A stretch of DNA of 64,000 nucleotides, taken from contig JAJCZJ010000020.1 in assembly GCA_029262455.1 (NCBI GenBank), positions 325,078 through 389,077 on the forward strand. The letters run 5' to 3'. Position numbers and translations under genes: made by a program. Shown here piece after piece: positions 5,591 to 51,316 of this stretch. The number at the start of each line of letters is the position of its first letter. Position 1 is the stretch's first letter. The notes under the pieces were generated by a model. It searched no databases. It saw nothing but the letters and a program-made list of their open reading frames with translations, and was not told the origin of the DNA. The stretch comes from Deltaproteobacteria bacterium (GTDB lineage: Bacteria > Desulfobacterota > Binatia > HRBIN30 > CADEER01).

Positions 5591-5680
5591 TTCGGGCTCC
5601 GTCCACACTCCGAAGCACTGTCTTGCAGCCGTCGAGCCCATTCCGTGGCCAGCAAGTTCAGTACACATCGCGCACCTATC

Positions 5681-5687
5681 GGGAGGA
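5681..5687 (+). promoter_or_regulatory. Ribosome-binding site (gggagga) upstream of ATG 5693
   Basis: gggaggaagacaATG read directly from the sequence. Confidence 0.45.
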
Positions 5688-5692
5688 AGACA

Positions 5693-7879
5693 ATGAAACA
5701 GCGAACAAAACACGTCCGCAAACCCGCGACCTCAAAATCGATGGTGATCATCGTATCGGTCGCACTCTCGTTGTCGCTACACGTCGCGACGGCCGACGCA
5801 GCTGTCTGTAACGCTGCGGATCTCTGCAGCCCAGGTCTGACCCTCTGCACGATCAACGGCACACACGAAATCGGCGACTTCTGCGAGCTCGATTTTCGCG
5901 GTCTGGCCGTTGCCAAGGTCGTACTGAACGGAACGCTGCAATCCGAAATCCCTGGTGGAGGTTTCGACATTCTCTCCAACGAGTTCACCCTGAACGGGAC
6001 GATCGCTGCATCTGGATCGATCGACGACACCGGCGGATCTATTTGGATCAACGCCGCGGGCGATTTCATACTCGCCAGCGGAAGGATCAATGTCTCCGGC
6101 CCGTCAGGCGCCGGAGACATTGACATCACCGCGACCGGGTCTGTCGACCTCCTGTCCGGCAGCGGCGCTGGGTTGCGCGCCGAGGGAACTACGCGAGAGG
6201 CTGACGGCGGAGCCGTCGCGATTGATGCCACGGGCCCCCTGCGCATTCATCGCAAGATCGCTACCTCCGGCGGCAACGACTCGAGCGGCGGCGACATCAA
6301 TCTCCGCGGCGCCACGATTGATATCGACGCTGAGCTCGATGTCCGCGCAAACTCCTCCGGATTGATCGAAGTGCTGGCAACTGGCGACCTGGAGATCGGC
6401 CCTAGCGGTCGCCTGCTGACGAAGGCCGTGCCCTTCGAGGACTCGGCGTCGTCCGCCGGAGATGTCGACCTCTTCTCTTTCGAAGGTAGCATCCTCATCG
6501 ACGGACAGATCGATGTCGACGGCGCCGCCGACACCGACGGCGCCGTCGTTTACCTCGACGCCGAGACCGACCTCACAGTGAACGGCGAGATTTTCGCAAG
6601 AGGAGGCAGCCTCTCAGCGAGTGGCGGTAGTATCGAAGCCTTCGCTAAGGGCGATCTGTCACTCTCCGGAAAGCTGTCGGTCGACGGCAACGGCGGCGAG
6701 AACGACGCCGGAGCCATCTCGATCGATGTCGACGGAGTTGCGCAAGTCACGGGTGAAGTGTCGGCAAACGGCGGTGCTCTATTCGGAAGCGGCGGATACA
6801 TCGACATCTTCGCAGACCAACTAAGCGTTCAGTCGCCAAGTAGTCTCCAAGTCAACGGTGGCGGCGGCGGCGGCTCTATCTTCGCAGAATCCCGCGCCGG
6901 CGACGCGATAGTCGGCGGTACTATGAAAGCAAACGGAACGGGAGGTAGCTTTGCCGGCGACATCGAGGTCCAAGCTCGCTGCCTGGTCGAAATCGGCGGA
7001 ACTGTAGAGGCCAAAGGAGAACCCGACGGTGCGATAACCCTCCAAGGCGAACAGATCTCAATTCTCTCCAACGCCAAGTTGATGGCAGCCTGCGGTCCCG
7101 CCGCTGACTGTATCCTCTTCCGAATCCGCCAAGTTTCTCCGACGAATCCAGACGTTCATCCACAGGCCATGGTCGATCCTCCTCCAACCGTCCAAGAGAT
7201 CCCCACGCTTCCAGCCTGTATCCCGCCAACACCGACACCAACCAGCACGCCGACAGCGACGCCCACCGCGACGCCGACCGCGACCGCAACCCCGACGGCG
7301 ACAGAATTACCCAGCGCAACCGCGACACCGACCCTAAGCACTCTGTGCGATACGGAGCCTAGGGACGATTGCGCCGAAGCGACGAGATCGTCCCTGTTGA
7401 TAAGGACGGACGCCGATCCAGAGCGCCAGAAGCTCATTTGGAAATGGTTGGGCGACGACCCCAACGGTTCTTTTTCGTTCGGCGCTCCCGACTCCATGAC
7501 GCGGTACCAATTCTGTGTGTACGAACAAATCGACCTCTTCGCGGCGCTTGAAATACCTCCCGCAACGACTTGCGGAACGAAACCGTGCTGGAAGCGCCTC
7601 GGGCCTACCTCCGAGCCACGGGGCTTTCGCTACAAAGATACCGATCTATCTTCAGACGGAATTCGCGTCCTACTCCTCAAAGCCAGCCAGGCAGGGACAA
7701 CGAAAGCAAAGGTCCTAGCAAAGGACGAAAACCTTCCATTCCCGTCTGCACTGGCGCTGGCACCTGAGGTCACGGTACAACTCGTCAACGATCTGGCCGC
7801 TAGTCCCTGCTGGTCGACGACGTATCAAGAAGAAGATGTGGTTCGGAACGACGACTCGCAGTTCAAAGCAAAACGTTGA
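5693..7879 (+). CDS. Secreted parallel beta-helix-like repeat protein with Pro/Thr-rich linker and C-terminal Cys-containing domain
   Basis: Signal peptide MKQRTKHVRKPATSKSMVIIVSVALSLSLHVATADA. Long run of G/D/S/I-rich pseudo-repeats (DIDITATGSVDLLSGSGAG..., IDIDAELDVRANSSG..). PT-linker PTPTPTSTPTATPTATPTATATPTATELPSATATPT. Start refined from ORF 5645..7879. Confidence 0.5.
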   Translation: MKQRTKHVRKPATSKSMVIIVSVALSLSLHVATADAAVCNAADLCSPGLTLCTINGTHEIGDFCELDFRGLAVAKVVLNGTLQSEIPGGGFDILSNEFTLNGTIAASGSIDDTGGSIWINAAGDFILASGRINVSGPSGAGDIDITATGSVDLLSGSGAGLRAEGTTREADGGAVAIDATGPLRIHRKIATSGGNDSSGGDINLRGATIDIDAELDVRANSSGLIEVLATGDLEIGPSGRLLTKAVPFEDSASSAGDVDLFSFEGSILIDGQIDVDGAADTDGAVVYLDAETDLTVNGEIFARGGSLSASGGSIEAFAKGDLSLSGKLSVDGNGGENDAGAISIDVDGVAQVTGEVSANGGALFGSGGYIDIFADQLSVQSPSSLQVNGGGGGGSIFAESRAGDAIVGGTMKANGTGGSFAGDIEVQARCLVEIGGTVEAKGEPDGAITLQGEQISILSNAKLMAACGPAADCILFRIRQVSPTNPDVHPQAMVDPPPTVQEIPTLPACIPPTPTPTSTPTATPTATPTATATPTATELPSATATPTLSTLCDTEPRDDCAEATRSSLLIRTDADPERQKLIWKWLGDDPNGSFSFGAPDSMTRYQFCVYEQIDLFAALEIPPATTCGTKPCWKRLGPTSEPRGFRYKDTDLSSDGIRVLLLKASQAGTTKAKVLAKDENLPFPSALALAPEVTVQLVNDLAASPCWSTTYQEEDVVRNDDSQFKAKR

Positions 7880-38930: not shown

Positions 38931-40156
38931 TGGCATCCAAAGCAAAACCAAGCGCCAAAAAGTCCGTGCCGACCACAAAAACAAAGCACGCAGCAAAACG
39001 TGCCAAAGCCTCGGCCAAGAAAACAGCCAAAGCGCCGCCCGGAAAAGCCACGACAGCACGGGCGAAGAAGACCACCAAGACTCCGGCCTCCAAGAGCCCC
39101 AAAACCCGGACCCAAAGGACCCGGGCCCAAAAGCCCCGGGCCCGCAAAGCCGCGCTCAAAGTATCGCAAACGGTGTCGCCCAAAGGATCGCAAACGACTT
39201 CGAAGACGGAGCGAACGACCCCATCGCCTCGCGCAAAGTCGCGGCAGGCCACAAAACAACCCCAGATCTTCGTGTCGATCGCCTCCTACCGCGACCAGTT
39301 TCTTCACTTCACCATCGAGTCGGTGCTCAAACAGGCGACGTACCCAGAACGGTTGACCTTCGGCCTCTGCTGGCAAGCCGACGACACCGAGCAACTCGAT
39401 CAATACCTGCACGATCCGCGTTTCCGCATTCGCAAGTACCCGTACTACGCGAGCCTCGGCTACGGTTGGGCAAGAGCCGAGATCCAAAAACTATACGCCG
39501 GCGAAGAGTACCATCTACTGATCGATTCTCACACGTATCTCGCCAAGGGGTGGGACGAGAATCTGATCGCGCAACTCGAGAGCAAGCCGGGCGAGAAGCC
39601 GCTACTGACGACCAGCTCACCCCCTTTCACCTTCGACAATGACGGCAACGTCGTAATCCCGTGGCAAGGGACCGAACACGACGGCGTGCCGCTGATGAAG
39701 TGCGCACGAATCCAACCGGCAGGGTGGGTCGACATCCAGATGTCCAATGAGCGCAAGTCCACCAAACATCAAACCACCGGATTGGTGTGCTGTAACTTTG
39801 TCTTCACGCACGGGGCTTGGATCCGCGAAGTGCCCGAGGATCCGGCGATGATCAACGCCGGCCACGAGTCAGCCCTTTCGGTTCGTACCTTCACCCACGG
39901 ATACGACATCTACCTGCCCGACGAAATTCAAATCTGGCACCTCGACTACAACAACTACCCGAACGGTGAGCGCAACAAGGTATGGGAAGCAAAGTCCGAC
40001 AGTTGGCAGTCTGAGGGCACCGAGATCATGCTGCGGCGGCTGCAAGCGCTGTTCTACAACCGCGGCGACCGCGCCTCGCTCGGCCGCTACGGACTCGGTC
40101 GATCCCGCACCGTAGCCGACTGGGCGGAGATCACCGGACTCGACCTCAGTGACTGA
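38930..40156 (+). CDS. GT60-like (Glyco_transf_GlcNAc / Skp1-Hyp and mucin-Thr GlcNAc-transferase family) enzyme with ~110-aa Lys/Ala/Thr-rich histone-H1-like N-terminal tail
   Basis: ATG overlaps the upstream stop (TGATG). Tail MASKAKPSAKKSVPTTKTKHAAKRAKASAKKTAKAPPGK... Catalytic region starts IFVSIASYRDQFLHFTIESVLKQATYPERLTFGLCWQADD, which I recognise as the N-terminal signature of the GT60 family from memory (needs HMM confirmation). Paralogous to 46893..47900. Confidence 0.45.
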   Translation: MASKAKPSAKKSVPTTKTKHAAKRAKASAKKTAKAPPGKATTARAKKTTKTPASKSPKTRTQRTRAQKPRARKAALKVSQTVSPKGSQTTSKTERTTPSPRAKSRQATKQPQIFVSIASYRDQFLHFTIESVLKQATYPERLTFGLCWQADDTEQLDQYLHDPRFRIRKYPYYASLGYGWARAEIQKLYAGEEYHLLIDSHTYLAKGWDENLIAQLESKPGEKPLLTTSSPPFTFDNDGNVVIPWQGTEHDGVPLMKCARIQPAGWVDIQMSNERKSTKHQTTGLVCCNFVFTHGAWIREVPEDPAMINAGHESALSVRTFTHGYDIYLPDEIQIWHLDYNNYPNGERNKVWEAKSDSWQSEGTEIMLRRLQALFYNRGDRASLGRYGLGRSRTVADWAEITGLDLSD

Positions 40157-45412: not shown

Positions 45413-45892
45413 TTACTCCTCGCCCTTGGTTTCTTTTCCCACGGGAGCCGGTCGGCCCTCGTCGTCATCCGAAGCAATGAGCTTTTTAGCACCGAAGCCA
45501 AAGAGCGCCGCTGCGGCCACAGCCGCGGCGCCGCCTGAAACCACAGGCGCATCGACTGCTGCCTGAAAGGCGGTCGGAACCGCCGTACTGGGAAGGCCCG
45601 GATCGAGGACCGTCGGGACCTGCGTCGGTGCGGCAGTAGGATTGAGGCAAAGTGACGGCGAATTGGTACATTGCGTCGTCCCAGCTTCGACAGGCGCGAC
45701 GAATCCAAGATCAGACGAGACCGGTACCGATAAGATCACCGGCGTTACCCAGGCAATCTTGAGCGCCGAGCGCCTTGAAATATCGTCGGAAAAAGTCGGC
45801 CGCGCCGCCTTCCCGTCCGTCACCAGCTCGCCCCGCAGCCGCTCGATCTCCTCGAGAAGCTCCTTTTTCGTCTTCGTTCCGTCACCCGCCAT
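45413..45892 (-). CDS. Small exported Pro/Thr/Ser/Ala-rich protein, paralog B (coiled-coil N-region plus SRRSALK Tat-like motif, C-terminal hydrophobic segment)
   Basis: Internal Met of ORF 45413..45997, preceded by gagggtc. MAGDGTKTKKELLEEIERLRGELVTDGK...DISRRSALKIAWVTPVILSVPVSS, then a PT-rich region with two Cys, then AAAVAAAALFGFGAKKLIASDDDEG. Confidence 0.5.
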   Translation of the reverse strand: MAGDGTKTKKELLEEIERLRGELVTDGKAARPTFSDDISRRSALKIAWVTPVILSVPVSSDLGFVAPVEAGTTQCTNSPSLCLNPTAAPTQVPTVLDPGLPSTAVPTAFQAAVDAPVVSGGAAAVAAAALFGFGAKKLIASDDDEGRPAPVGKETKGEE

Positions 45893-46048
45893 TATAGACC
45901 CTCTCCAATGCTGCCGCTGCCATAGCAAGAATCCGACCCAAATCCCAGGCCTGCGACATCGATTTCCTGGATTCGCGGTGAGACACCCCCTGCGCACTCG
46001 TAGCAGCGGCTCGGCAGCCTATCCCGATCAAGTGGGAGAATGGGCGTG

Positions 46049-46744
46049 TCATCCCACCCCGCAGACCTCCCGACCCGTGGCTTCACGATAGTAGGACACA
46101 TCCTCGGCGCAAATGCGCAAAGCCAGTTCTCGCGTCTCCCCATCATAGAAAAGCTCCGGAACCGGCATCCCGTGCCGGCGAAGCCAGCCCGGGGAACGAT
46201 CTGTCGCGCGCTCTCGAATCGTCACGTCCTGCGGCGAAGGATTCTCGTGCAGGACCGGCGCGGAAACCGAAACTCTCTCGTTTAAGCTCGCCAGCCCCCG
46301 CGAGAGATCTTCCACCGCAACGACTTCGTCGAAGTCTATCTGATGCGTGTTTCGGACCTGCGGCACCAAATGGTGCTGGGGTTCGATCCCGCGGGTCTGA
46401 ACATGCTGCAAGGTGTAGAGGAACTTGCGAAAGCTCTTGTCCCGCAGCGAGAGCTTCCGGTCATCGTCGGCAAAGCACCACAACGTTTCATCGCGCACGA
46501 CCCACAAGGTGTAGAACCCGACGAGTCGGCGAAGCGGATCGCGCACAAAGAAGACCTTCCAATAGTCACGACAGCGGTCGATGTCGCCGTGCCAAATCAG
46601 GAAAGCGTCAAGGTCTTCGACCGGTTGCTTCGTCTTCTCCTCAATCGCTGCCTTGCACCACGATCGGATGCTGTTCGAACCACACTTGGGACTATAGACG
46701 GCAAGTACTTCGAGTGGATCCGCGGCTAGGAAGAAGTGGGCCAT
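46049..46744 (-). CDS. Carbohydrate sulfotransferase-like protein (Sulfotransfer_2/3 family); possible N-terminal extension through the heptad repeat to a GTG at 46900
   Basis: From MAHFFLAADPLEVLAVYSPKCGSNSIRSW (5'-PSB PKCGS) and FFVRDPLRRLVGFY (3'-PB). The ORF-track version starts at a GTG at 46898-46900, 5 nt upstream of the preceding gene's stop, which is a coupling-type overlap. That start would add (T-S-H-E-S-P-V)n repeats to the N-terminus. Confidence 0.5.
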   Translation of the reverse strand: MAHFFLAADPLEVLAVYSPKCGSNSIRSWCKAAIEEKTKQPVEDLDAFLIWHGDIDRCRDYWKVFFVRDPLRRLVGFYTLWVVRDETLWCFADDDRKLSLRDKSFRKFLYTLQHVQTRGIEPQHHLVPQVRNTHQIDFDEVVAVEDLSRGLASLNERVSVSAPVLHENPSPQDVTIRERATDRSPGWLRRHGMPVPELFYDGETRELALRICAEDVSYYREATGREVCGVG

Positions 46745-46759
46745 GGGGATTCTATGTGT

Positions 46760-46878
46760 GTGATTGGTGACTGGTGATTCGTGACTGGTGACTGGTGATT
46801 CGTGACTGGTGACTGGTGATTCGTGACTGGTGACTGGTGATTCGTGACTGGTGACTGGTGACTGGTGACTGGTGATTG
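46760..46878. repeat. 17 tandem copies of a heptanucleotide (GTGACTG/GTGATTC; 21-nt super-unit x4) between the GT60-like gene and the sulfotransferase
   Basis: Read directly: gtgattg gtgactg gtgattc gtgactg gtgactg gtgattc ... gtgactg gtgattg. On the minus strand this is CAGTCAC/GAATCAC. In the reading frame of ORF 46049..46900 it encodes the heptad TSHESPV five or more times. Confidence 0.8.
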
Positions 46879-46892
46879 GTTGGGCAAAAGTT

Positions 46893-47900
46893 CTACACAC
46901 CGGCGCCGGCCTGGTACTCTTCGAAAGTGACGCAGCTCTCCCAGTCGGACGGCGACCGGATTGTCACTGGGTCGGGGTTCGCGCCACTAAACGCATCCGG
47001 ATGCGCGCGTTTGGCTCGGAAGTCAAAGCCCGAAAAAATCTCGTAGTCCCGCAAGGTCCGCACCCGACCGAAACCGTACGGTCCGGGCAGCGGTGATTCA
47101 TAGCTCGAGAGCAGCTGTTCCAAACGGGCAAACGCCTCGCGGTTGCGGCGCTCGACGACGTCTTCCCCCTGCTCCCAATGGCGCCGCGGCGGCCCGTCGT
47201 TGTGCTGCATGTGCCATGCCACGACTTCCGTTGGAAGAAAGAAGTCGTACCCCCAGGTGTACGAACGAATGGTCACATTCAGCTCTTCGCCCCAATAGTA
47301 TTGTCCGGGATCCTGCGGCACCTCGACATTCCAGATGCCGCGCGAGAACGCGAAGTTGCCGTTGACAAACCGTGTACGCCCCGGCTTCTTGACGTTGGGG
47401 GCTCCAAAGTCGAACCACGGCGCCCAATGGTCCGACGCGCTCCAGCCGCTCACCTTGGTCGTCGGCACACCCATTTCAGTACGACGCTGCGGCACACCAT
47501 CCTCGTCGTACCAGAATAGGGGAGCATTCATGCTGAGAACGGGTTTCTCACTGGGGAGAGCCTCCAGCATCTCGATCAGCCGCGCGTCCCAGTCGGGCTC
47601 GAGCTTCATATGGGAATCGATCTGCAGAGTGTAGGGTTCACCTCGCCACAGAGACTGCGCAATATTACGCGCCCAGGGGCCGCCCTGGCTTGCCGCAATC
47701 GTCGTATCCACAAACCGAAACCGCGGATCTCGGCGAAAATCCTCCAACGGCACCGGCGCTTTTGGGTCACGCTGCCAGCAAATTCCGAAACGCAGCGAAT
47801 CTGGAGCACTTGCCGTTTCGATCGCGTCACGCAAGGTGCGCGGCAACTCGGGGTCCGTGTACGACGCGATCGCGACGAAGATCTGAGGGTGGGAAGCCAC
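46893..47900 (-). CDS. GT60-like (Glyco_transf_GlcNAc family) glycosyltransferase, paralog of 38930..40156 without basic tail
   Basis: GTG start (MASHPQIFVAIASYTDPELPRTLRDAIETASAPDSLRFGICWQRD). Collinear similarity with the 38930 protein (IFV[AS]IASY.D, [IL]CWQ, DSH, W...E, WH). Confidence 0.45.
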   Translation of the reverse strand: MASHPQIFVAIASYTDPELPRTLRDAIETASAPDSLRFGICWQRDPKAPVPLEDFRRDPRFRFVDTTIAASQGGPWARNIAQSLWRGEPYTLQIDSHMKLEPDWDARLIEMLEALPSEKPVLSMNAPLFWYDEDGVPQRRTEMGVPTTKVSGWSASDHWAPWFDFGAPNVKKPGRTRFVNGNFAFSRGIWNVEVPQDPGQYYWGEELNVTIRSYTWGYDFFLPTEVVAWHMQHNDGPPRRHWEQGEDVVERRNREAFARLEQLLSSYESPLPGPYGFGRVRTLRDYEIFSGFDFRAKRAHPDAFSGANPDPVTIRSPSDWESCVTFEEYQAGAGV

Positions 47901-48115
47901 GATTCATACTCTTGCCGAAGCCAAGGTCGCACCGCAAGTGACAGAGACACCCGTCTATAGCCGCTCCACCGCTTGAATCTTGGTCGAGGACTCGGGATTC
48001 CAAACAACCTCCTCATGGCTCCAAGATCGGGATCTTCGCAGACAATCGACCCGCAAGGTTGCCCGAGCCACTGCGAGCGCGGCCGCAAACCCACCCGATC
48101 CACTCGACCCCCGGA

Positions 48116-49114
48116 TCAGACCTTGTGGGCGAGCCCCTTTTCCCGCGCCGTGTACTGATCGAAGATCCAGGCGTAGGTTTTCTCGATACCGTCGCGCAAT
48201 GAAGTAGACGGAGCCCAACCGAGCTTCTCAATGATCATCGTGTTGTCGCTGCTCCGCCCGTCGACACCCTTCGGAGCATCCAGTTTATAGGTTCGCTCGA
48301 GCCGAATTCCGGCAATCTCTTCGACGACATCGACCAGATCATTGATGGACACTGTCTCACTTGAGCCGAGATTGATCGGGTCCGAGACACTGCTCTCCAT
48401 CAGCCGACGAATTCCCTCGATGCAGTCATCGATGTACGTAAACGAGCGACCCTGGTTTCCATCGCCCCAGATTTCAATGCGATGATCGCCGCGGACTTTT
48501 GCTTCGATCACCTTTCGACAGATCGCCGCGGGTGCCTTCTCGCGACCACCGTCCCAGGTCCCATGAGGCCCATACACATTGTGGAAGCGAGCCACTCGCG
48601 TCCGCATCCCAAAGTCCTCCATGAAATGGCGGCACATACGCTCGGAGAACAGCTTCTCCCACCCGTACCCATCTTCCGGCATCGCCGGGTACACGTCGTC
48701 CTCTTTCAAGGGAGTGACATCATAGCCACGTTGCTTGTCCGCCCTGTATACGCATGCCGACGACGCGTAGAAAAAGCTCTCGGTGCCGCACACATTCGCA
48801 GCTTCCAACAGATGGGTATTGATCAAGACGTTGAGCATGCACAGAGCCTTGTTGCTCTCGATGAAGCCCATGCCGCCCATATCACAGGCCATCTGGTACA
48901 CGACTCCGACCCCCTCGCAGACATCCATGCACGGACTCCGCAACCGCAGATCCAGCTGCCGATTGTCGACGTCGTCGAAGCACTGGTACCACTCTTCGAT
49001 CGGTTTGAGATCGACCGCGCGTAGGTTGGGCTCACCACGCTGGCGCAAGTCGGCAACAATCTGCCCCCCGATAAACCCGCCCGCGCCTGTGACTAGAACA
49101 GTAGAAGCAACCAT
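48116..49114 (-). CDS. gme: GDP-mannose 3,5-epimerase (plant GME-type extended SDR; produces GDP-L-galactose/GDP-L-gulose)
   Basis: 332 aa. Collinear matches to plant GME as I recall it: TGAGGFIG, MACDMGGMGFIESN (AADMGGMGFIQSN), FFYASSACVY, GYGWEKL, FHNVYGPHGTWDGGREKAPAAICRK (FHNIYGPFGTWKGGREKAPAAFCRK), SDNTMIIEKLGWAP (SDNNLIKEKLGWAP). Confidence 0.75.
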   Translation of the reverse strand: MVASTVLVTGAGGFIGGQIVADLRQRGEPNLRAVDLKPIEEWYQCFDDVDNRQLDLRLRSPCMDVCEGVGVVYQMACDMGGMGFIESNKALCMLNVLINTHLLEAANVCGTESFFYASSACVYRADKQRGYDVTPLKEDDVYPAMPEDGYGWEKLFSERMCRHFMEDFGMRTRVARFHNVYGPHGTWDGGREKAPAAICRKVIEAKVRGDHRIEIWGDGNQGRSFTYIDDCIEGIRRLMESSVSDPINLGSSETVSINDLVDVVEEIAGIRLERTYKLDAPKGVDGRSSDNTMIIEKLGWAPSTSLRDGIEKTYAWIFDQYTAREKGLAHKV

Positions 49115-49228
49115 GGTCAGTCTGTATTTGCCTCTAACAGCTCACGTTGCAAGGATCAGCCGGGAACAATCGATGCATTCACTTCCTCATGCTTCGCCCG
49201 AAAGAGTAGACTCGAAGGTCAGGCAACA

Positions 49229-51316
49229 ATGACTGAGAAATCGCCCTGGCATGACGCTCTGAAGCTGGCGGCGTCAGGAAGTCGCAACGGAGTAGCGGCC
49301 ATCGTAGACGAGGCGCTCGCGGCTTCTGCTGTCAGCTCGAAGTACGAAACTATAGCTGCGAGAATCTTCCTTCTCGCCGCAGACTTCCCAAAGGCCGTCG
49401 CAGCTTGGGAACGTGCTCGACAAAAGGCGCAGACGGACGAAGACACTCGTGAGGTGAACATCGTGCGCGCGCTCGTTTCAGGGATGCTCGGAGACTTCGC
49501 GACCTCTCTGGACACCTACCACCAAGTCGTCAACGAGGGTTCCGACATCGCAACAATCCTCGCCGCAATCGAGGTCGCAGTGCGCGCCGAAGCCTGGGAA
49601 AAAATCCAACGTTGGCAACCGATCCTGGAAAAGCACGCGTCAGCAAAGCTCGAGCACAACCTGCGCCTCGCCGATCAGCTTCGACTCGCTGGCCGAGTCG
49701 ACGATGCTCGAGCGCTCATCCTCAGAGCCGTCGCGGCATCGACAGATCCGAAGGTCGCCAGGCCAGCGGCCGCACAACTTCTGATCGTCTGCGGCGCCTA
49801 CGACGAAGCGAGGCAGCTGTTCGAAGCACAGATCTCAGCAGGCGTAGCCTGTGCTTCGTCTCATGCGGGCATGTCTACCCTTCAGCTGTGGCACGGAGAC
49901 GTGGGCACCGCGTTGCAGGCCGCAGCAAACGCCTGCCGAATCAATCCGGAACTGAAGACAACGCGAAAAGTTGAGGCCATTGGGAAACTTCTCGACGGGG
50001 AGCACGCAGCGGCCATCGAGGCTTTGGACTCTTTGGTGAACTCCGGCGAAGCAAACGATGCTGAAACTCATGCATGGCGCGCTGAAGCGCTTGTGAGACA
50101 GGGCAAACACGATCTCGCAATGGCTGCCGCGCGCAACGCTGGAGATCTCAGTCCAGATCACGCCACTTTCATCGCGGTGCGCGTCATCGAAGCGCTCACG
50201 GCAGTACGCAGCGGGCGACGACCAACGGGAGACGGCACACTCGTCCGTGCCGTTGAGGTGCTCTGCGGTGCGCGCGACGCGTCTCTGCTACGAAAAACAA
50301 TGCGGCGCGTCGCGGCCGGTCCCTGGATGGGTCCGGACAGAGTATTGGCAGCTGGGACACGGTGGCTCCGCCGCATCGGGATCCCTGTCGCCGAAATCGC
50401 CACACCGGCGGAGGTCGAATCCATTTTGGAACGAAGTCTGGAGGCCATGGGTGGAAATCGTAGCCCCTTTCATCCGACACGAGTGGAGGGTGGAAAGCTC
50501 AAGCCGCTGCGCGTCGAAGCGCCGCCGCGCACACTCGTGAGAGATGCCCAACACGCGGTTCGGTTCGGCGGCTACGAGACCGCGCGCCGACGGCTCGACC
50601 TATTGATCGAGCGTTACCCTGGCTGGCCGCAGCCTTGGTACTACCGCGCCGAGATCTTGATGTGGCTCGGTCGCTACGACGAAGCTCGGGAAGACCTGGA
50701 GATCGCCCTGTCCCGGAAGCACAGTGATCCGGAAATCGAACACGGATACTGGCACCACATCGGCCTCGCCGGCGTGCATCTCATGCAAGGGAGACCCGAG
50801 ATCGCGCTGCGAACCATTGATCGCGTGCGGCGCCGTATGATCGGATCTCCGGCCCAACCGTACTACGCCTGGCGCGGCGAGATCCTTCGAGCCTTGGGAC
50901 GAAGCGAAGAAGCAAGGGATGCGCTGCAGGAGGTTTGCCCACCTGGCGGTCGCCGTCTCGGTTCGTGGCTTACGTTGGCAATGGTCTGCCACGATCTCGG
51001 AGAAACTCAGCGAACCAGGCAGATCCTCGTGCAAGCGGCGGAGAGCGCACCATCCTTGATGCTCGACCTTGCGCGGTCACCACAAGTCGCCCGATCTCTC
51101 AATCGGCTACAAGGTCAATCCGGCTGCGACACACTGTCGGACCGGGAGGTTCTCGAACTCCTAGCTCGAATGACAAAAGCTCTGCGCGGCAATCGCAGTG
51201 CCTCTTGTGTCACCTTTGTCGACTCCGATGGGAGTCTCCGTGCGATCCCACCGAACGGCTTCTACGAAAACGTCGCCCGACACATCGAGATTGATGGCAT
51301 TCGCGCCAAGTTGTAG
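49229..51316 (+). CDS. Ala/Arg-rich TPR-like repeat protein
   Basis: 695 aa, all-alpha, with repetitive helical hairpin patterns (e.g. WYYRAEILMWLGRYDEAREDLEIAL, YYAWRGEILRALGRSEEARDAL). No catalytic motif recognised. Confidence 0.4.
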   Translation: MTEKSPWHDALKLAASGSRNGVAAIVDEALAASAVSSKYETIAARIFLLAADFPKAVAAWERARQKAQTDEDTREVNIVRALVSGMLGDFATSLDTYHQVVNEGSDIATILAAIEVAVRAEAWEKIQRWQPILEKHASAKLEHNLRLADQLRLAGRVDDARALILRAVAASTDPKVARPAAAQLLIVCGAYDEARQLFEAQISAGVACASSHAGMSTLQLWHGDVGTALQAAANACRINPELKTTRKVEAIGKLLDGEHAAAIEALDSLVNSGEANDAETHAWRAEALVRQGKHDLAMAAARNAGDLSPDHATFIAVRVIEALTAVRSGRRPTGDGTLVRAVEVLCGARDASLLRKTMRRVAAGPWMGPDRVLAAGTRWLRRIGIPVAEIATPAEVESILERSLEAMGGNRSPFHPTRVEGGKLKPLRVEAPPRTLVRDAQHAVRFGGYETARRRLDLLIERYPGWPQPWYYRAEILMWLGRYDEAREDLEIALSRKHSDPEIEHGYWHHIGLAGVHLMQGRPEIALRTIDRVRRRMIGSPAQPYYAWRGEILRALGRSEEARDALQEVCPPGGRRLGSWLTLAMVCHDLGETQRTRQILVQAAESAPSLMLDLARSPQVARSLNRLQGQSGCDTLSDREVLELLARMTKALRGNRSASCVTFVDSDGSLRAIPPNGFYENVARHIEIDGIRAKL

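What the first reader, a model, noticed from the sequence alone, without database searches (positions are those of the whole stretch)
46745..46900. Perfect 17-copy heptanucleotide tandem array (encodes a TSHESPV heptad if translated) between the GT60-like gene and the sulfotransferase
The array sits at 46760-46878: (GTGATTC GTGACTG GTGACTG)x4 plus extra GTGACTG units, with near-perfect identity, suggesting recent expansion and slippage-prone DNA.

Two readings are possible:
- (a) The array lies in the 5' region of the sulfotransferase, whose motif-supported ATG is at 46744. The repeats would then leave only 15 nt between array and start codon. Unit-number changes would alter promoter/RBS spacing, a phase-variable switch on the sulfation step.
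- (b) Translation starts at the GTG at 46898-46900, which overlaps the upstream stop in a coupling arrangement. The repeats would then encode an N-terminal Ser/Thr/Pro/His heptad array (TSHESPV x5), reminiscent of CTD-like or mucin-like modules. Because the unit is 7 nt, single-unit slippage would shift the frame and switch the extension on or off.

Either way it is a contingency-locus-like feature on a glycan-modification gene.
Basis: seen in the sequence. Interest (0 to 1): 0.65.

Follow-up and report, generated by a model that had tools for sequence, protein, structure and literature searches.

The report
Seven-base repeat between two glycan genes
A real, recently expanded run of 17 seven-base repeats sits in the normally tiny gap between a sugar-transferase gene and a sulfotransferase gene; it belongs to an ordinary, widespread class of slippage-prone bacterial repeats, and nothing available shows that it acts as a genetic switch.

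Summary
The array is real: window 46760-46878, 17 head-to-tail heptamers (coding strand: CAGTCAC x11, GAATCAC x4, CAATCAC x2), with a 21-nt higher-order period. It is not strictly "perfect". It is the only such array in 64 kb.

It lies between two minus-strand genes, a PF11397 GlcNAc-transferase and a PF03567 sulfotransferase. Five orthologous gene pairs have spacers of 3-46 nt and no array; here the spacer is 148 nt. All 18 aligned orthologues start at the MAH(F/Y)F methionine, which is ATG 46744. The 283-aa database protein carrying TSH(E/Q)SPV heptads is therefore most likely an ORF-caller extension, possible because the repeat has no sense-strand stop codon.

No promoter, terminator or Rfam match lies between the genes. 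The sense RNA is unusually unstructured.

The same heptamer forms arrays in many phyla, but composition-matched control heptamers do so equally often. Flanks, orientation and neighbouring genes show no pattern.

Verdict: a young, lineage-specific heptanucleotide simple-sequence repeat. It is probably hypermutable and probably loosens translational coupling of the sulfotransferase. A contingency-locus role is untested, because no second allele exists in any collection searched. This is a new member of a known kind, of low to moderate interest.

The parts
46760..46878 (-). Heptanucleotide tandem array, 17 units (119 nt). On the gene strand: CAATCAC, CAGTCAC x4, (GAATCAC CAGTCAC CAGTCAC) x3, GAATCAC, CAGTCAC, CAATCAC.
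   Evidence: TRF period 7 and period 21. Sequence read directly. Unit list. Not expected by chance.
46879..46892 (-). Upstream flank of the spacer (AACTTTTGCCCAAC), between the GlcNAc-transferase stop and the array. Contains TTG 46887-46885, a possible alternative start that would be in frame at 15 or 18 units.
   Evidence: The ORF 46726-46887 is listed.
46745..46759 (-). Downstream flank (ACACATAGAATCCCC), 15 nt between the array and the sulfotransferase ATG. No Shine-Dalgarno-like sequence. Contains TAG 46754-46752, followed by 7 nt and then the ATG; this matches the stop-7 nt-ATG geometry of orthologue L002.
46049..46744 (-). Sulfotransferase gene (PF03567 Sulfotransfer_2), 231 aa from the conserved start MAHFFL. 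The PKCGS motif lies 19 residues in.
   Evidence: Pfam. 18 orthologues of 230-264 aa all start at this Met-Ala.
46898..46900 (-). Alternative GTG start used in the public annotation (283-aa protein P0001). It lies in GTGTAG at the end of the upstream gene. From here the array would be read as ITSHQSPV(TSHESPV)x4TNHTHRIP.
   Evidence: (P0001 is 100% identical, 283 aa, NCBI).
46893..47900 (-). Upstream gene: PF11397 'GlcNAc' glycosyltransferase, 335 aa, stop TAG 46895-46893. Its C-terminus ends at the same position as in the orthologues.
   Evidence: Pfam E=1e-43. Synteny with the sulfotransferase in L002/L003, L004, L200/L201, L203 and L204. 3' ends compared.

Best explanation
The array is a young, lineage-specific heptanucleotide simple-sequence repeat. 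It expanded in place, by slipped-strand mispairing, inside the short spacer between two co-oriented and probably co-transcribed genes: a GT60-type polypeptide GlcNAc-transferase followed by a Sulfotransfer_2 sulfotransferase.

**What is shown**
- Relatives have 3-46 nt between these two genes. This genome has 148 nt, of which 119 are the array. Removing the array leaves 29 nt, or 36 nt if one CAATCAC seed unit is kept, which is within the range seen in relatives.
- The sulfotransferase keeps its ancestral start (ATG 46744).
- The array has no stop codon in any sense frame.

**What is inferred**
- The 52-residue TSH(E/Q)SPV extension in the deposited protein is mainly an ORF-calling artefact, made possible by the absence of sense-strand stop codons.
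- The array is transcribed within the bicistronic mRNA as about 120 nt of unusually unstructured, C/A-rich RNA.
- It moves the sulfotransferase start 148 nt away from the upstream stop codon. Tight termination-reinitiation coupling is then replaced by independent, Shine-Dalgarno-less initiation at the ATG and/or by reinitiation at GTG 46900.
- Seventeen near-identical units should gain and lose units often. This would change the spacer length and which upstream start codon is in frame: GTG 46900 at 3k+2 units, TTG 46887 at 3k units, none at 3k+1.
- The most likely consequence is graded, heritable variation in sulfotransferase output, as a by-product of repeat instability. It is probably not an evolved ON/OFF switch.
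For: - **Array and significance:**
- **Orthologous spacers:** five independent GlcNAc-T to sulfotransferase pairs have spacers of 7, 24, 46, 3 and 23 nt with no repeats.
- **Conserved start:** Met53-Ala54 of the 283-aa ORF is the start of all 18 aligned orthologues. Full-length homologues cover about 80% of the 283-aa query and are mostly 230-240 aa (a few are longer: 264, 295, 315 aa).
- **Between the genes:** no promoter-like or terminator-like site and no Rfam match.
- **RNA structure:** the sense RNA folds worse than all 200 shuffles, z=+2.84. The sense DNA strand has 0 kcal/mol.
- **Recent origin:** near-identical units and a 21-nt higher-order period at 96% indicate recent duplication.
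- **Generic class:** exact (CAGTCAC)x4 occurs in at least 120 genome stretches from many phyla. Composition-matched control heptamers form arrays at similar or higher rates in IMG/VR: 5 loci for CAGTCAC against 6, 25 and 5 for the controls. There are no shared flanks.
- **Instability of this repeat type:** UDP-GlcNAc 2-epimerases that are 94-100% identical differ by 3, 4, 5 or 8 heptads and by presence or absence of an N-terminal array.
- **Frame bookkeeping:**
Against: - No population or strain data exist for this locus, so instability here is inferred and not observed.
- Co-transcription, and translational coupling in the orthologues, are inferred from gene spacing only.
- GTG 46900 sits at the upstream stop codon in a coupling-like arrangement and is in frame at the observed copy number. 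Elsewhere the same repeat is translated inside proteins and at N-termini. Translation of the extension therefore cannot be excluded.
- The copy number of 17 rests on a single assembly; a second assembly breaks inside the array.
- The source organism could not be placed, so its use of Shine-Dalgarno sequences is judged from about 18 upstream regions only.
Confidence: 0.55

Rival explanations
1. Translated, frame-selected extension. Ribosomes finishing the GlcNAc-transferase reinitiate at GTG 46900 and read the array as a Ser/Thr/Pro/His-rich N-terminal tail fused to the sulfotransferase. Single-unit slippage changes the frame and hence the protein made.
For: - GTG 46900 lies in GTGTAG at the upstream stop and is in frame at 17 units.
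- The array is stop-free on the sense strand.
- Part of the array grew in 21-nt (in-frame) steps.
- The same repeat is translated in other proteins, including at N-termini where the array follows the first two codons (MN|ESPDTSHQSPIT...|KLKLV compared with MN|KQLKLV).
- The authentic ATG has no Shine-Dalgarno-like sequence and is now 148 nt from the upstream stop.
Against: - None of the 18 aligned orthologues has any extension, and all start at MAH(F/Y)F.
- Two of the three frames offer an upstream start (GTG 46900 or TTG 46887), so an in-frame start is expected by chance about two times in three.
- The ATG stays intact at every copy number, so slippage would not abolish the enzyme.
- The 5' run of four plain units shows that growth was not only in 21-nt steps.
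Confidence: 0.2
2. Promoter or leader spacing switch. The array lies in the sulfotransferase's own promoter or 5' leader, and unit number sets transcription or ribosome-binding geometry, as with the 7-bp repeats upstream of Haemophilus influenzae hmw1A.
For: - The array ends 15 nt from the start codon.
- Heptamer repeats upstream of hmw1A set expression in inverse proportion to their length (PMC12721329).
- Heptamer arrays lying a few nucleotides upstream of start codons are recurrent in other bacteria (PMC4679880; examples).
Against: - No promoter-like site on either strand in 45900-49400.
- Orthologues leave only 3-46 nt between the genes, which argues for one transcript.
- The hmw mechanism needs a long hairpin in the sense 5' leader. 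Here the sense RNA is less structured than every shuffle.
- The array is upstream of the fixed 15-nt flank, so the spacing from ribosome-binding region to ATG does not change with unit number.
Confidence: 0.1
3. Neutral passenger. The array is a transient, selectively neutral or slightly harmful microsatellite with no measurable effect on either gene.
For: - It is absent from all orthologous loci.
- It is very young, with near-identical units.
- It is the only such array in 64 kb.
- Arrays of this heptamer elsewhere show no orientation bias (35 against 36, crude ORF heuristic).
- The long ORFs abutting such arrays elsewhere have diverse functions, with no surface-gene preference.
- Control heptamers form arrays as often.
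Against: Inserting 119 nt between two genes that are otherwise 3-46 nt apart and lack Shine-Dalgarno sequences would be expected to alter downstream translation to some degree. This is an inference and was not tested.
Confidence: 0.35
4. Assembly artefact. The array or its length was produced by mis-assembly of short reads.
For: - A k-mer based assembly of SRR15505514 breaks 28 nt into the array.
- Heptamer arrays often end contigs (PMC4679880).
Against: - Both flanks are in the expected syntenic order (GlcNAc-T then sulfotransferase).
- The independent contig reproduces the junction and the first four units exactly, with 0 mismatches in 3,900 nt.
- The internal pattern of three unit variants is not what a collapsed or looped graph would give.
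Confidence: 0.05

Closest known systems
Long simple sequence repeats with 5-11 nt units in prokaryotic genomes (Mrazek et al. 2007, as summarised in PMC4679880)
   Same: - A head-to-tail heptamer array far longer than chance allows.
- Heptamers are the most abundant unit class.
- Sporadic, lineage-specific occurrence, mostly intergenic, ascribed to polymerase slippage.
   Different: Nothing essential differs. The only particular feature here is its position in an intercistronic spacer of a glycosylation and sulfation gene pair, in an unplaced environmental bacterium.
TAACTGA direct repeats upstream of start codons in Beggiatoaceae, cyanobacteria and Bacteroidetes (MacGregor 2015, PMC4679880)
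   Same: - Heptamer direct repeats ending a few nucleotides before a start codon that lacks a Shine-Dalgarno sequence.
- Absent from the same intergenic region in close relatives.
- Indels in 7-nt steps between strains.
- Contigs often break in them.
- The unit is related: CAGTCAC differs by two C/T transitions from CAGTTAT, the rotated reverse complement of TAACTGA. The encoded peptide is SPVTSHQ here and LSVISYQ there.
   Different: - The orientation is opposite to the 'forward' TAACTGA sets. The sense strand here has no stop codon, whereas TAACTGA gives stops in all three frames.
- There is one array in 64 kb, rather than the 169 sets reported for one genome.
- It has 17 units, rather than the usual 2-6.
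Haemophilus influenzae hmw1A/hmw2A (ATCTTTC)n repeats (PMC12721329; PMC2424069)
   Same: - A 7-nt unit.
- Located upstream of a gene for a surface-related function.
- Transcribed leader.
- Unit number variable, giving graded rather than ON/OFF expression.
   Different: - The hmw repeats form one arm of a long 5'-leader hairpin cut by RNase III. Here the sense RNA is essentially unstructured and no G-rich partner exists.
- No promoter was found.
- The host is an environmental bacterium, not a host-adapted pathogen.
- Variation has not been demonstrated.
G-quadruplex-forming GGGNATC / GGGGA(C/T)T heptamer repeats of Xanthomonas and Nostoc (Rehm et al. 2015, PMC4692102)
   Same: - Heptamer arrays lying between co-oriented ORFs.
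- The G-rich strand is antisense and within 50 bp upstream of an ORF.
- 2-26 units, transcribed.
   Different: - The G runs here are only GG.
- Folding with quadruplexes allowed predicts none.
- There is no preference for four units.
Cyanobacterial STRR heptamers (STRR1 CCCCAGT, STRR3 CAACAGT; recalled from Mazel et al. 1990, not checked here)
   Same: - Tandem heptamers sharing the CAGT core. When rotated they are one mismatch from CAGTCAC.
- The same CAGTCAC arrays are abundant in cyanobacterial genomes.
   Different: - The unit sequence is not identical.
- The host is not evidently a cyanobacterium: about 60% GC, with the best acetolactate synthase matches in other phyla.

Membership tests
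Prokaryotic long simple sequence repeat (heptanucleotide class) | Uninterrupted head-to-tail copies of a 5-11 nt unit | tested here: met
   17 units of 7 nt, no indels.
Prokaryotic long simple sequence repeat (heptanucleotide class) | Longer than expected by chance in its own sequence context | tested here: met
   0 of 100 shuffles reach the observed count; the maximum was 3 against 17.
Prokaryotic long simple sequence repeat (heptanucleotide class) | Arises locally rather than being carried by a mobile element (no conserved flanks) | tested here: met
   The flanks of 132 arrays of the same heptamer share nothing beyond partial units. Orthologous loci lack the array.
Contingency locus (repeat-mediated phase variation) | Copy number differs between cells or strains of the same lineage | not testable with these tools
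   No second allele was found: the protein search gave only the identical protein and then 58% identity, exact look-ups failed, and a metagenome scan for the flank gave 0 hits. Variation was shown only for the same repeat type in unrelated genes.
Contingency locus (repeat-mediated phase variation) | A unit-number change alters expression, either by shifting the reading frame of the gene or by changing promoter element spacing | tested here: inconclusive
   The conserved ATG lies downstream of the array and is unaffected at any copy number. No promoter was found. Only the choice of a hypothetical upstream start changes.
Contingency locus (repeat-mediated phase variation) | Repeat associated with a surface or host-interaction gene, typically one of several such loci in the genome | tested here: inconclusive
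   The gene is a glycan or glycoprotein sulfotransferase in a glycosylation island, but only one array occurs in 64 kb.
hmw1A-type 5'-leader heptamer repeat | The repeats pair with a complementary region to form a long hairpin in the sense leader RNA | tested here: not met
   The sense RNA folds worse than all 200 shuffles (z=+2.84). Only the antisense RNA would form a hairpin (-55.4 kcal/mol, z=-7.5).
TAACTGA-type start-codon-proximal repeats | Heptamer direct repeats within a few nucleotides upstream of a start codon that lacks a Shine-Dalgarno sequence | tested here: met
   The array is 15 nt from ATG 46744, and the flank ACACATAGAATCCCC has no GGAGG-like motif.
TAACTGA-type start-codon-proximal repeats | Forward orientation giving stop codons in all three sense frames, and many sets per genome | tested here: not met
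   The sense strand is stop-free in all frames. There is one array in the window.
G-quadruplex-forming heptamer repeats | G tracts able to form a quadruplex | tested here: not met
   Only GG doublets are present. Folding with quadruplexes enabled returns the same non-quadruplex structure.
Genuine protein tandem repeat (N-terminal heptad domain of the sulfotransferase) | The repeat region is present in, or alignable to, orthologous proteins | tested here: not met
   All 18 orthologues start at the Met that follows the array. The repeat part of the query hits only unrelated proteins.

The most novel reading that the evidence does not exclude
The copy number of the array selects among three translational modes of the sulfotransferase.
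- At 3k+2 units, a Ser/Thr/Pro-rich N-terminally extended enzyme is made from GTG 46900.
- At 3k units, an extended enzyme is made from TTG 46887. In addition, a short upstream ORF from GTG 46900 ends 7 nt before the ATG, restoring the ancestral stop-7 nt-ATG coupling geometry.
- At 3k+1 units, an overlapping upstream ORF is read and no extension is made.

This would give heritable, reversible variation in sulfation of the adjacent mucin-like, Pro/Thr-rich protein in a free-living bacterium. The extension itself might be an acceptor for the neighbouring polypeptide GlcNAc-transferase.
Probability: 0.1. Interest if true: 0.6.

Novelty: new member of a known kind. Interest (0 to 1): 0.3.

Why it matters
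As it stands the finding matters in three ways.
- **Annotation.** The deposited 283-aa sulfotransferase very probably carries a spurious 52-residue repeat extension. The same artefact, or real in-frame insertion, recurs in many database proteins that contain SPVTSHQ-type heptads.
- **Assembly.** The array marks a likely hypermutable site, and short-read assemblies break there.
- **Biology, if variation were shown.** If unit number were shown to vary and to tune sulfotransferase output, it would be an example of repeat-driven variation of glycoprotein sulfation outside host-adapted pathogens. It would also be a tractable case for asking what start-codon-proximal heptamer arrays do. That question has been open since the TAACTGA and STRR descriptions.

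Tried and rejected
1. **Mobile element or insertion cassette.** Flanks of 132 arrays of the same heptamer show no shared sequence or inverted repeats. A 5-nt direct repeat, TAGAA, flanks the extra segment in the window, but a match that short is compatible with chance.
2. **'CAGTCAC is a special, horizontally spread heptamer'.** It occurs in at least 120 genome stretches across many phyla. Composition-matched controls in IMG/VR gave 6, 25 and 5 loci against 5 for CAGTCAC, so the recurrence is generic.
3. **Association with sugar-nucleotide genes.** This was suggested by the many UDP-GlcNAc 2-epimerase and dehydratase hits to the repeat peptide. It was not borne out in the genome sample, where neighbours include H+-pyrophosphatase, a type II secretion F protein, ATPase, UbiE, a MiaB-like enzyme, HlyD and an ABC transporter. 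A second batch of ten array-adjacent ORFs gave one Pfam hit (Peptidase_M23) and nothing else.
4. **Orientation bias relative to genes.** None was seen: 35 against 36 for arrays 5' of genes, and 47 against 52 for arrays 3' of genes. The ORF heuristic is crude and misclassified the window's own right side.
5. **G-quadruplex.** Not predicted.
6. **Known RNA family.** No Rfam match at E<=1.
7. **DNA hairpins that might drive slippage.** Neither strand differs from shuffles.
8. **Search for another allele.** Exact protein look-ups for the 283-aa and 231-aa forms and a metagenome scan for the left junction found nothing.
9. **Identifying the organism.** The acetolactate synthase search gave 82%-identical unnamed relatives. 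Named hits at 66-70% identity span six differently named groups: Acidobacteria, Deltaproteobacteria, Planctomycetota, Nitrospirae, Polyangiales and Bacteroidia. The organism remains unresolved.
10. **Literature search on the literal heptamer.** It returned only irrelevant papers.
Full report
**Observation**

The region 46760-46878 holds 17 uninterrupted 7-nt units. Tandem Repeats Finder gives period 7 (17.3 copies, 84% matches) and period 21 (5.8 copies, 96% matches), the top-scoring repeat of the whole window.

On the minus strand, which carries the flanking genes, the units read: CAATCAC, CAGTCAC x4, (GAATCAC CAGTCAC CAGTCAC) x3, GAATCAC, CAGTCAC, CAATCAC. A degenerate two-unit pattern matches 16 times in the array and once elsewhere in 64 kb. 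Shuffles gave a mean of 0.47 and a maximum of 3.

'Perfect' is slightly generous, because three unit variants occur.

An independent Logan assembly of run SRR15505514 is identical to the window over 3,900 nt (46851-50750, 0 mismatches) and stops 28 nt into the array. This reproduces the junction. It also shows that short-read assemblies break here, so the count of 17 rests on one assembly.

**Surroundings**

Both neighbours lie on the minus strand.
- Upstream is a 335-aa PF11397 'GlcNAc' glycosyltransferase (E=1e-43). To my knowledge this is the CAZy GT60 polypeptide GlcNAc-transferase family. Its stop is TAG 46895-46893.
- Downstream is a PF03567 Sulfotransfer_2 protein.

The public annotation (P0001, 283 aa, NCBI, contig of 410,815 bp) starts the sulfotransferase at GTG 46900 and so translates the array as ITSHQSPV(TSHESPV)x4TNH.

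The full-length homologues cover only about 80% of that query, and most are 230-240 aa (a few are longer: 264, 295, 315 aa). In an alignment of 18 of them, every one begins at Met53-Ala54 of the 283-aa ORF (MAH(F/Y)F), 18 residues before the PKC(G/A)S motif. The ancestral start is therefore ATG 46744, and the array is outside the conserved gene.

**Orthologous loci**

Five independent loci keep the same gene pair. Their stop-to-start spacers are:

| Locus | Spacer (nt) |
|---|---|
| L002/L003 | 7 |
| L004 | 24 |
| L200/L201 | 46 |
| L203 | 3 |
| L204 | 23 |

None contains a repeat.

In the window the spacer is 148 nt: 14 nt, the 119-nt array, then 15 nt. The GlcNAc-transferase ends at the same residue as its orthologues, so the extra DNA lies strictly between stop and start. 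Removing the array leaves 29 nt, or 36 nt with one CAATCAC seed unit, which is within the orthologous range.

This fits in-place expansion from a CA-rich proto-repeat (CCAAC-CAATCAC-ACACA). The closest sulfotransferase in 5.8 billion proteins is only 58% identical, so the age of the insertion cannot be bracketed more tightly.

**Signals**

- No sigma-70-like promoter and no intrinsic terminator lie between the genes: 0 promoter-like sites in 45900-49400 on both strands.
- No Rfam family matches.
- The sense RNA of the spacer region is less structured than every one of 200 shuffles (z=+2.84), and the sense DNA strand has no predicted structure.
- The antisense RNA would form a long G.U-rich hairpin (-55.4 kcal/mol, z=-7.5). 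Nothing suggests that strand is transcribed, and as DNA it is unremarkable.
- No quadruplex is predicted.
- The 15 nt before the ATG (ACACATAGAATCCCC) have no Shine-Dalgarno-like motif. The orthologous spacers lack one too, as do most of the roughly 18 gene starts inspected in the window.

**Frames**

CAGTCAC-type units have no stop codon in any sense frame, so an ORF caller runs the sulfotransferase frame through the array at any copy number. A simulation gives three cases.
- At 14, 17 or 20 units, GTG 46900 is in frame.
- At 15 or 18 units, TTG 46887 is in frame. An ORF from GTG 46900 would then stop at TAG 46754-46752, 7 nt before the ATG, the same stop-7 nt-ATG geometry as orthologue L002.
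- At 16 or 19 units, no upstream start is in frame, and an ORF from GTG 46900 would end 16 nt past the ATG.

An in-frame upstream start is thus expected about two times in three, and it is weak evidence for translation. The authentic ATG survives every state. Single-unit slippage could change which protein form or coupling mode is used, but it could not simply switch the gene off.

**Is this heptamer special?**

The repeat part of the 283-aa query hit dozens of unrelated proteins carrying SPVTSHQ-like heptads. These include many UDP-GlcNAc 2-epimerases with arrays at the N-terminus and in two internal loops.

One cluster of 94-100% identical epimerases differs by 3, 4, 5 or 8 internal heptads, and by presence, shortening or absence of the N-terminal array. 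This is direct evidence that this repeat type changes copy number between close relatives, and that when it is coding only 21-nt steps survive.

They come from Cyanobacteriota, Planctomycetota, Verrucomicrobiota, Bacteroidota, Acidobacteriota, Actinomycetota, Proteobacteria, Firmicutes and others.

Several controls argue against anything sequence-specific.
- In IMG/VR, (CAGTCAC)x4 gives 5 loci. Composition-matched CATGCAC, CACTGAC and CAGCTAC give 6, 25 and 5, and TAACTGA gives 32.
- The flanks of 132 arrays share nothing.
- A crude ORF heuristic shows no orientation bias relative to neighbouring genes (35 against 36 for arrays 5' of genes).
- Among the first ten long ORFs found abutting arrays elsewhere, those with Pfam matches were an H+-pyrophosphatase, a type II secretion F protein, an ATPase, UbiE, a MiaB-like enzyme (internal array), HlyD and an ABC transporter. 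A second batch of ten gave only one hit, a Peptidase_M23.

The array therefore belongs to the generic class of bacterial heptanucleotide simple-sequence repeats. It does not belong to a dedicated system.

**Comparison with the literature**

- MacGregor (PMC4679880) summarises Mrazek et al. 2007: heptamers are the commonest long simple-sequence repeats in prokaryotes. The paper itself describes TAACTGA repeats ending a few nucleotides before start codons that lack Shine-Dalgarno sequences. Those repeats are absent from the same spacer in relatives, differ by 7-nt indels between strains, and often end contigs. All of this matches the present case. The exceptions are orientation (our sense strand is stop-free and corresponds to their 'reverse' orientation) and abundance.
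- CAGTCAC is two transitions away from the rotated reverse complement of TAACTGA.
- Rehm et al. (PMC4692102) found G-rich heptamers preferentially between co-oriented ORFs, with the G-rich strand antisense and within 50 bp upstream of an ORF. That is the same placement as here, but ours cannot form a quadruplex.
- The H. influenzae hmw1A (ATCTTTC)n repeat (PMC12721329) is the best-studied functional heptamer array. It needs a hairpin in the sense leader, which is absent here.

**Conclusion**

The most likely account is a young, lineage-specific, slippage-prone heptanucleotide repeat that expanded in an intercistronic spacer.
- Shown: its reality, its position, its absence from orthologues, the conserved downstream start, the lack of sense-RNA structure, and the instability of the same repeat type elsewhere.
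- Inferred: co-transcription, loosening of translational coupling, copy-number instability at this locus, and a graded effect on sulfotransferase output.

Its promoter/RBS version is disfavoured, and its translated-heptad version is possible at roughly one in five.

I rate the finding as a new member of a known kind, with low to moderate interest. Its practical value is as an annotation correction.

Noticed in passing
window 45413-45997 (-), likely start ATG at 45892; also L004:6857-7666, L204:3309-3827, L203:3254-3580: A small protein with no Pfam match lies directly downstream of the sulfotransferase and is conserved at that position in orthologous loci. It has a charged N-terminal helix and an 'SRRSALKIAWVTPVVLSVP' stretch (a Tat-signal-like RR motif plus a hydrophobic run). 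Next comes a Pro/Thr/Ser-rich region of variable length; in L004 this is about 12 tandem SPTQEPTR repeats. It ends with a hydrophobic segment (GGAAAxAAGALFGFGAKKL) and an acidic tail. It looks like a mucin-like acceptor for the neighbouring GT60-type GlcNAc-transferases and sulfotransferases.
   Followed up: partly
window ~16700-51300: A large protein-glycosylation island. It holds three YfhO-like membrane proteins, a Nucleotid_trans protein, three PqqD-domain proteins (375, 454 and 597 aa) and two PF11397 GlcNAc-transferases. It also has an 1135-aa fusion of Sulfotransfer_2, methyltransferase, GT92 and methyltransferase domains, an NAD-dependent epimerase and a TPR protein. The core is syntenic in L002-L004 and L200-L204. 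PqqD-like domains next to glycosyltransferases and sulfotransferases are unusual and were not explained.
   Followed up: partly
P0032 cluster (P0101-P0114); P0024, P0030-P0036, P0044, P0095: UDP-GlcNAc 2-epimerases and a GDP-mannose-dehydratase-like protein carry in-frame SPVTSHQ-type heptad arrays at the N-terminus and in one or two internal loops. Proteins 94-100% identical to each other differ by whole heptads (3, 4, 5 or 8) and by presence or absence of the N-terminal array. These are heptanucleotide repeats tolerated and polymorphic inside enzymes.
   Followed up: partly
L007-L126 (genome contigs); e.g. L050:448-993, L012:329-510, L064:3041-3215: Exact (CAGTCAC)x4 arrays occur in at least 120 genome stretches from many phyla. 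A Planctomycetota MAG (L050) has a 78-unit array mixing CAGCCAC and CAGTCAC (546 bp). Composition-matched control heptamers are equally common as arrays in IMG/VR, so this reflects a general propensity of heptamers.
   Followed up: yes
window 46745-46892 (+ strand): If the antisense strand of the spacer were transcribed, it would fold into a very stable G.U-rich hairpin (-55.4 kcal/mol, z=-7.5). The sense RNA is almost structureless. No antisense promoter was detected.
   Followed up: partly
window 46891-46895 and 46750-46754 (-): The extra segment is bracketed by a 5-nt direct repeat, TAGAA: GTG TAGAA CTTTTGCCC ... CACACA TAGAA TCCCC ATG. The copy next to the ATG resembles the stop-plus-spacer of orthologue L002 (TGAATTCCAC ATG). 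It could be a footprint of how the insertion arose, or it could be chance.
   Followed up: no
window 7224-7304 and 39096-39143: Two other weaker tandem repeats: period 24/12/6 at 7224-7304, inside the 744-aa ORF 5645-7879, and period 15 at 39096-39143, inside the second GlcNAc-transferase ORF. Both periods are multiples of three, so they are probably coding repeats.
   Followed up: no
whole window: The source organism could not be placed. GC content is 60%. Acetolactate synthase has unnamed relatives at 82% identity. Named hits at only 66-70% identity carry six different taxon labels: Acidobacteria, Deltaproteobacteria, Planctomycetota, Nitrospirae, Polyangiales and Bacteroidia. No tRNA genes occur in 64 kb.
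   Followed up: partly
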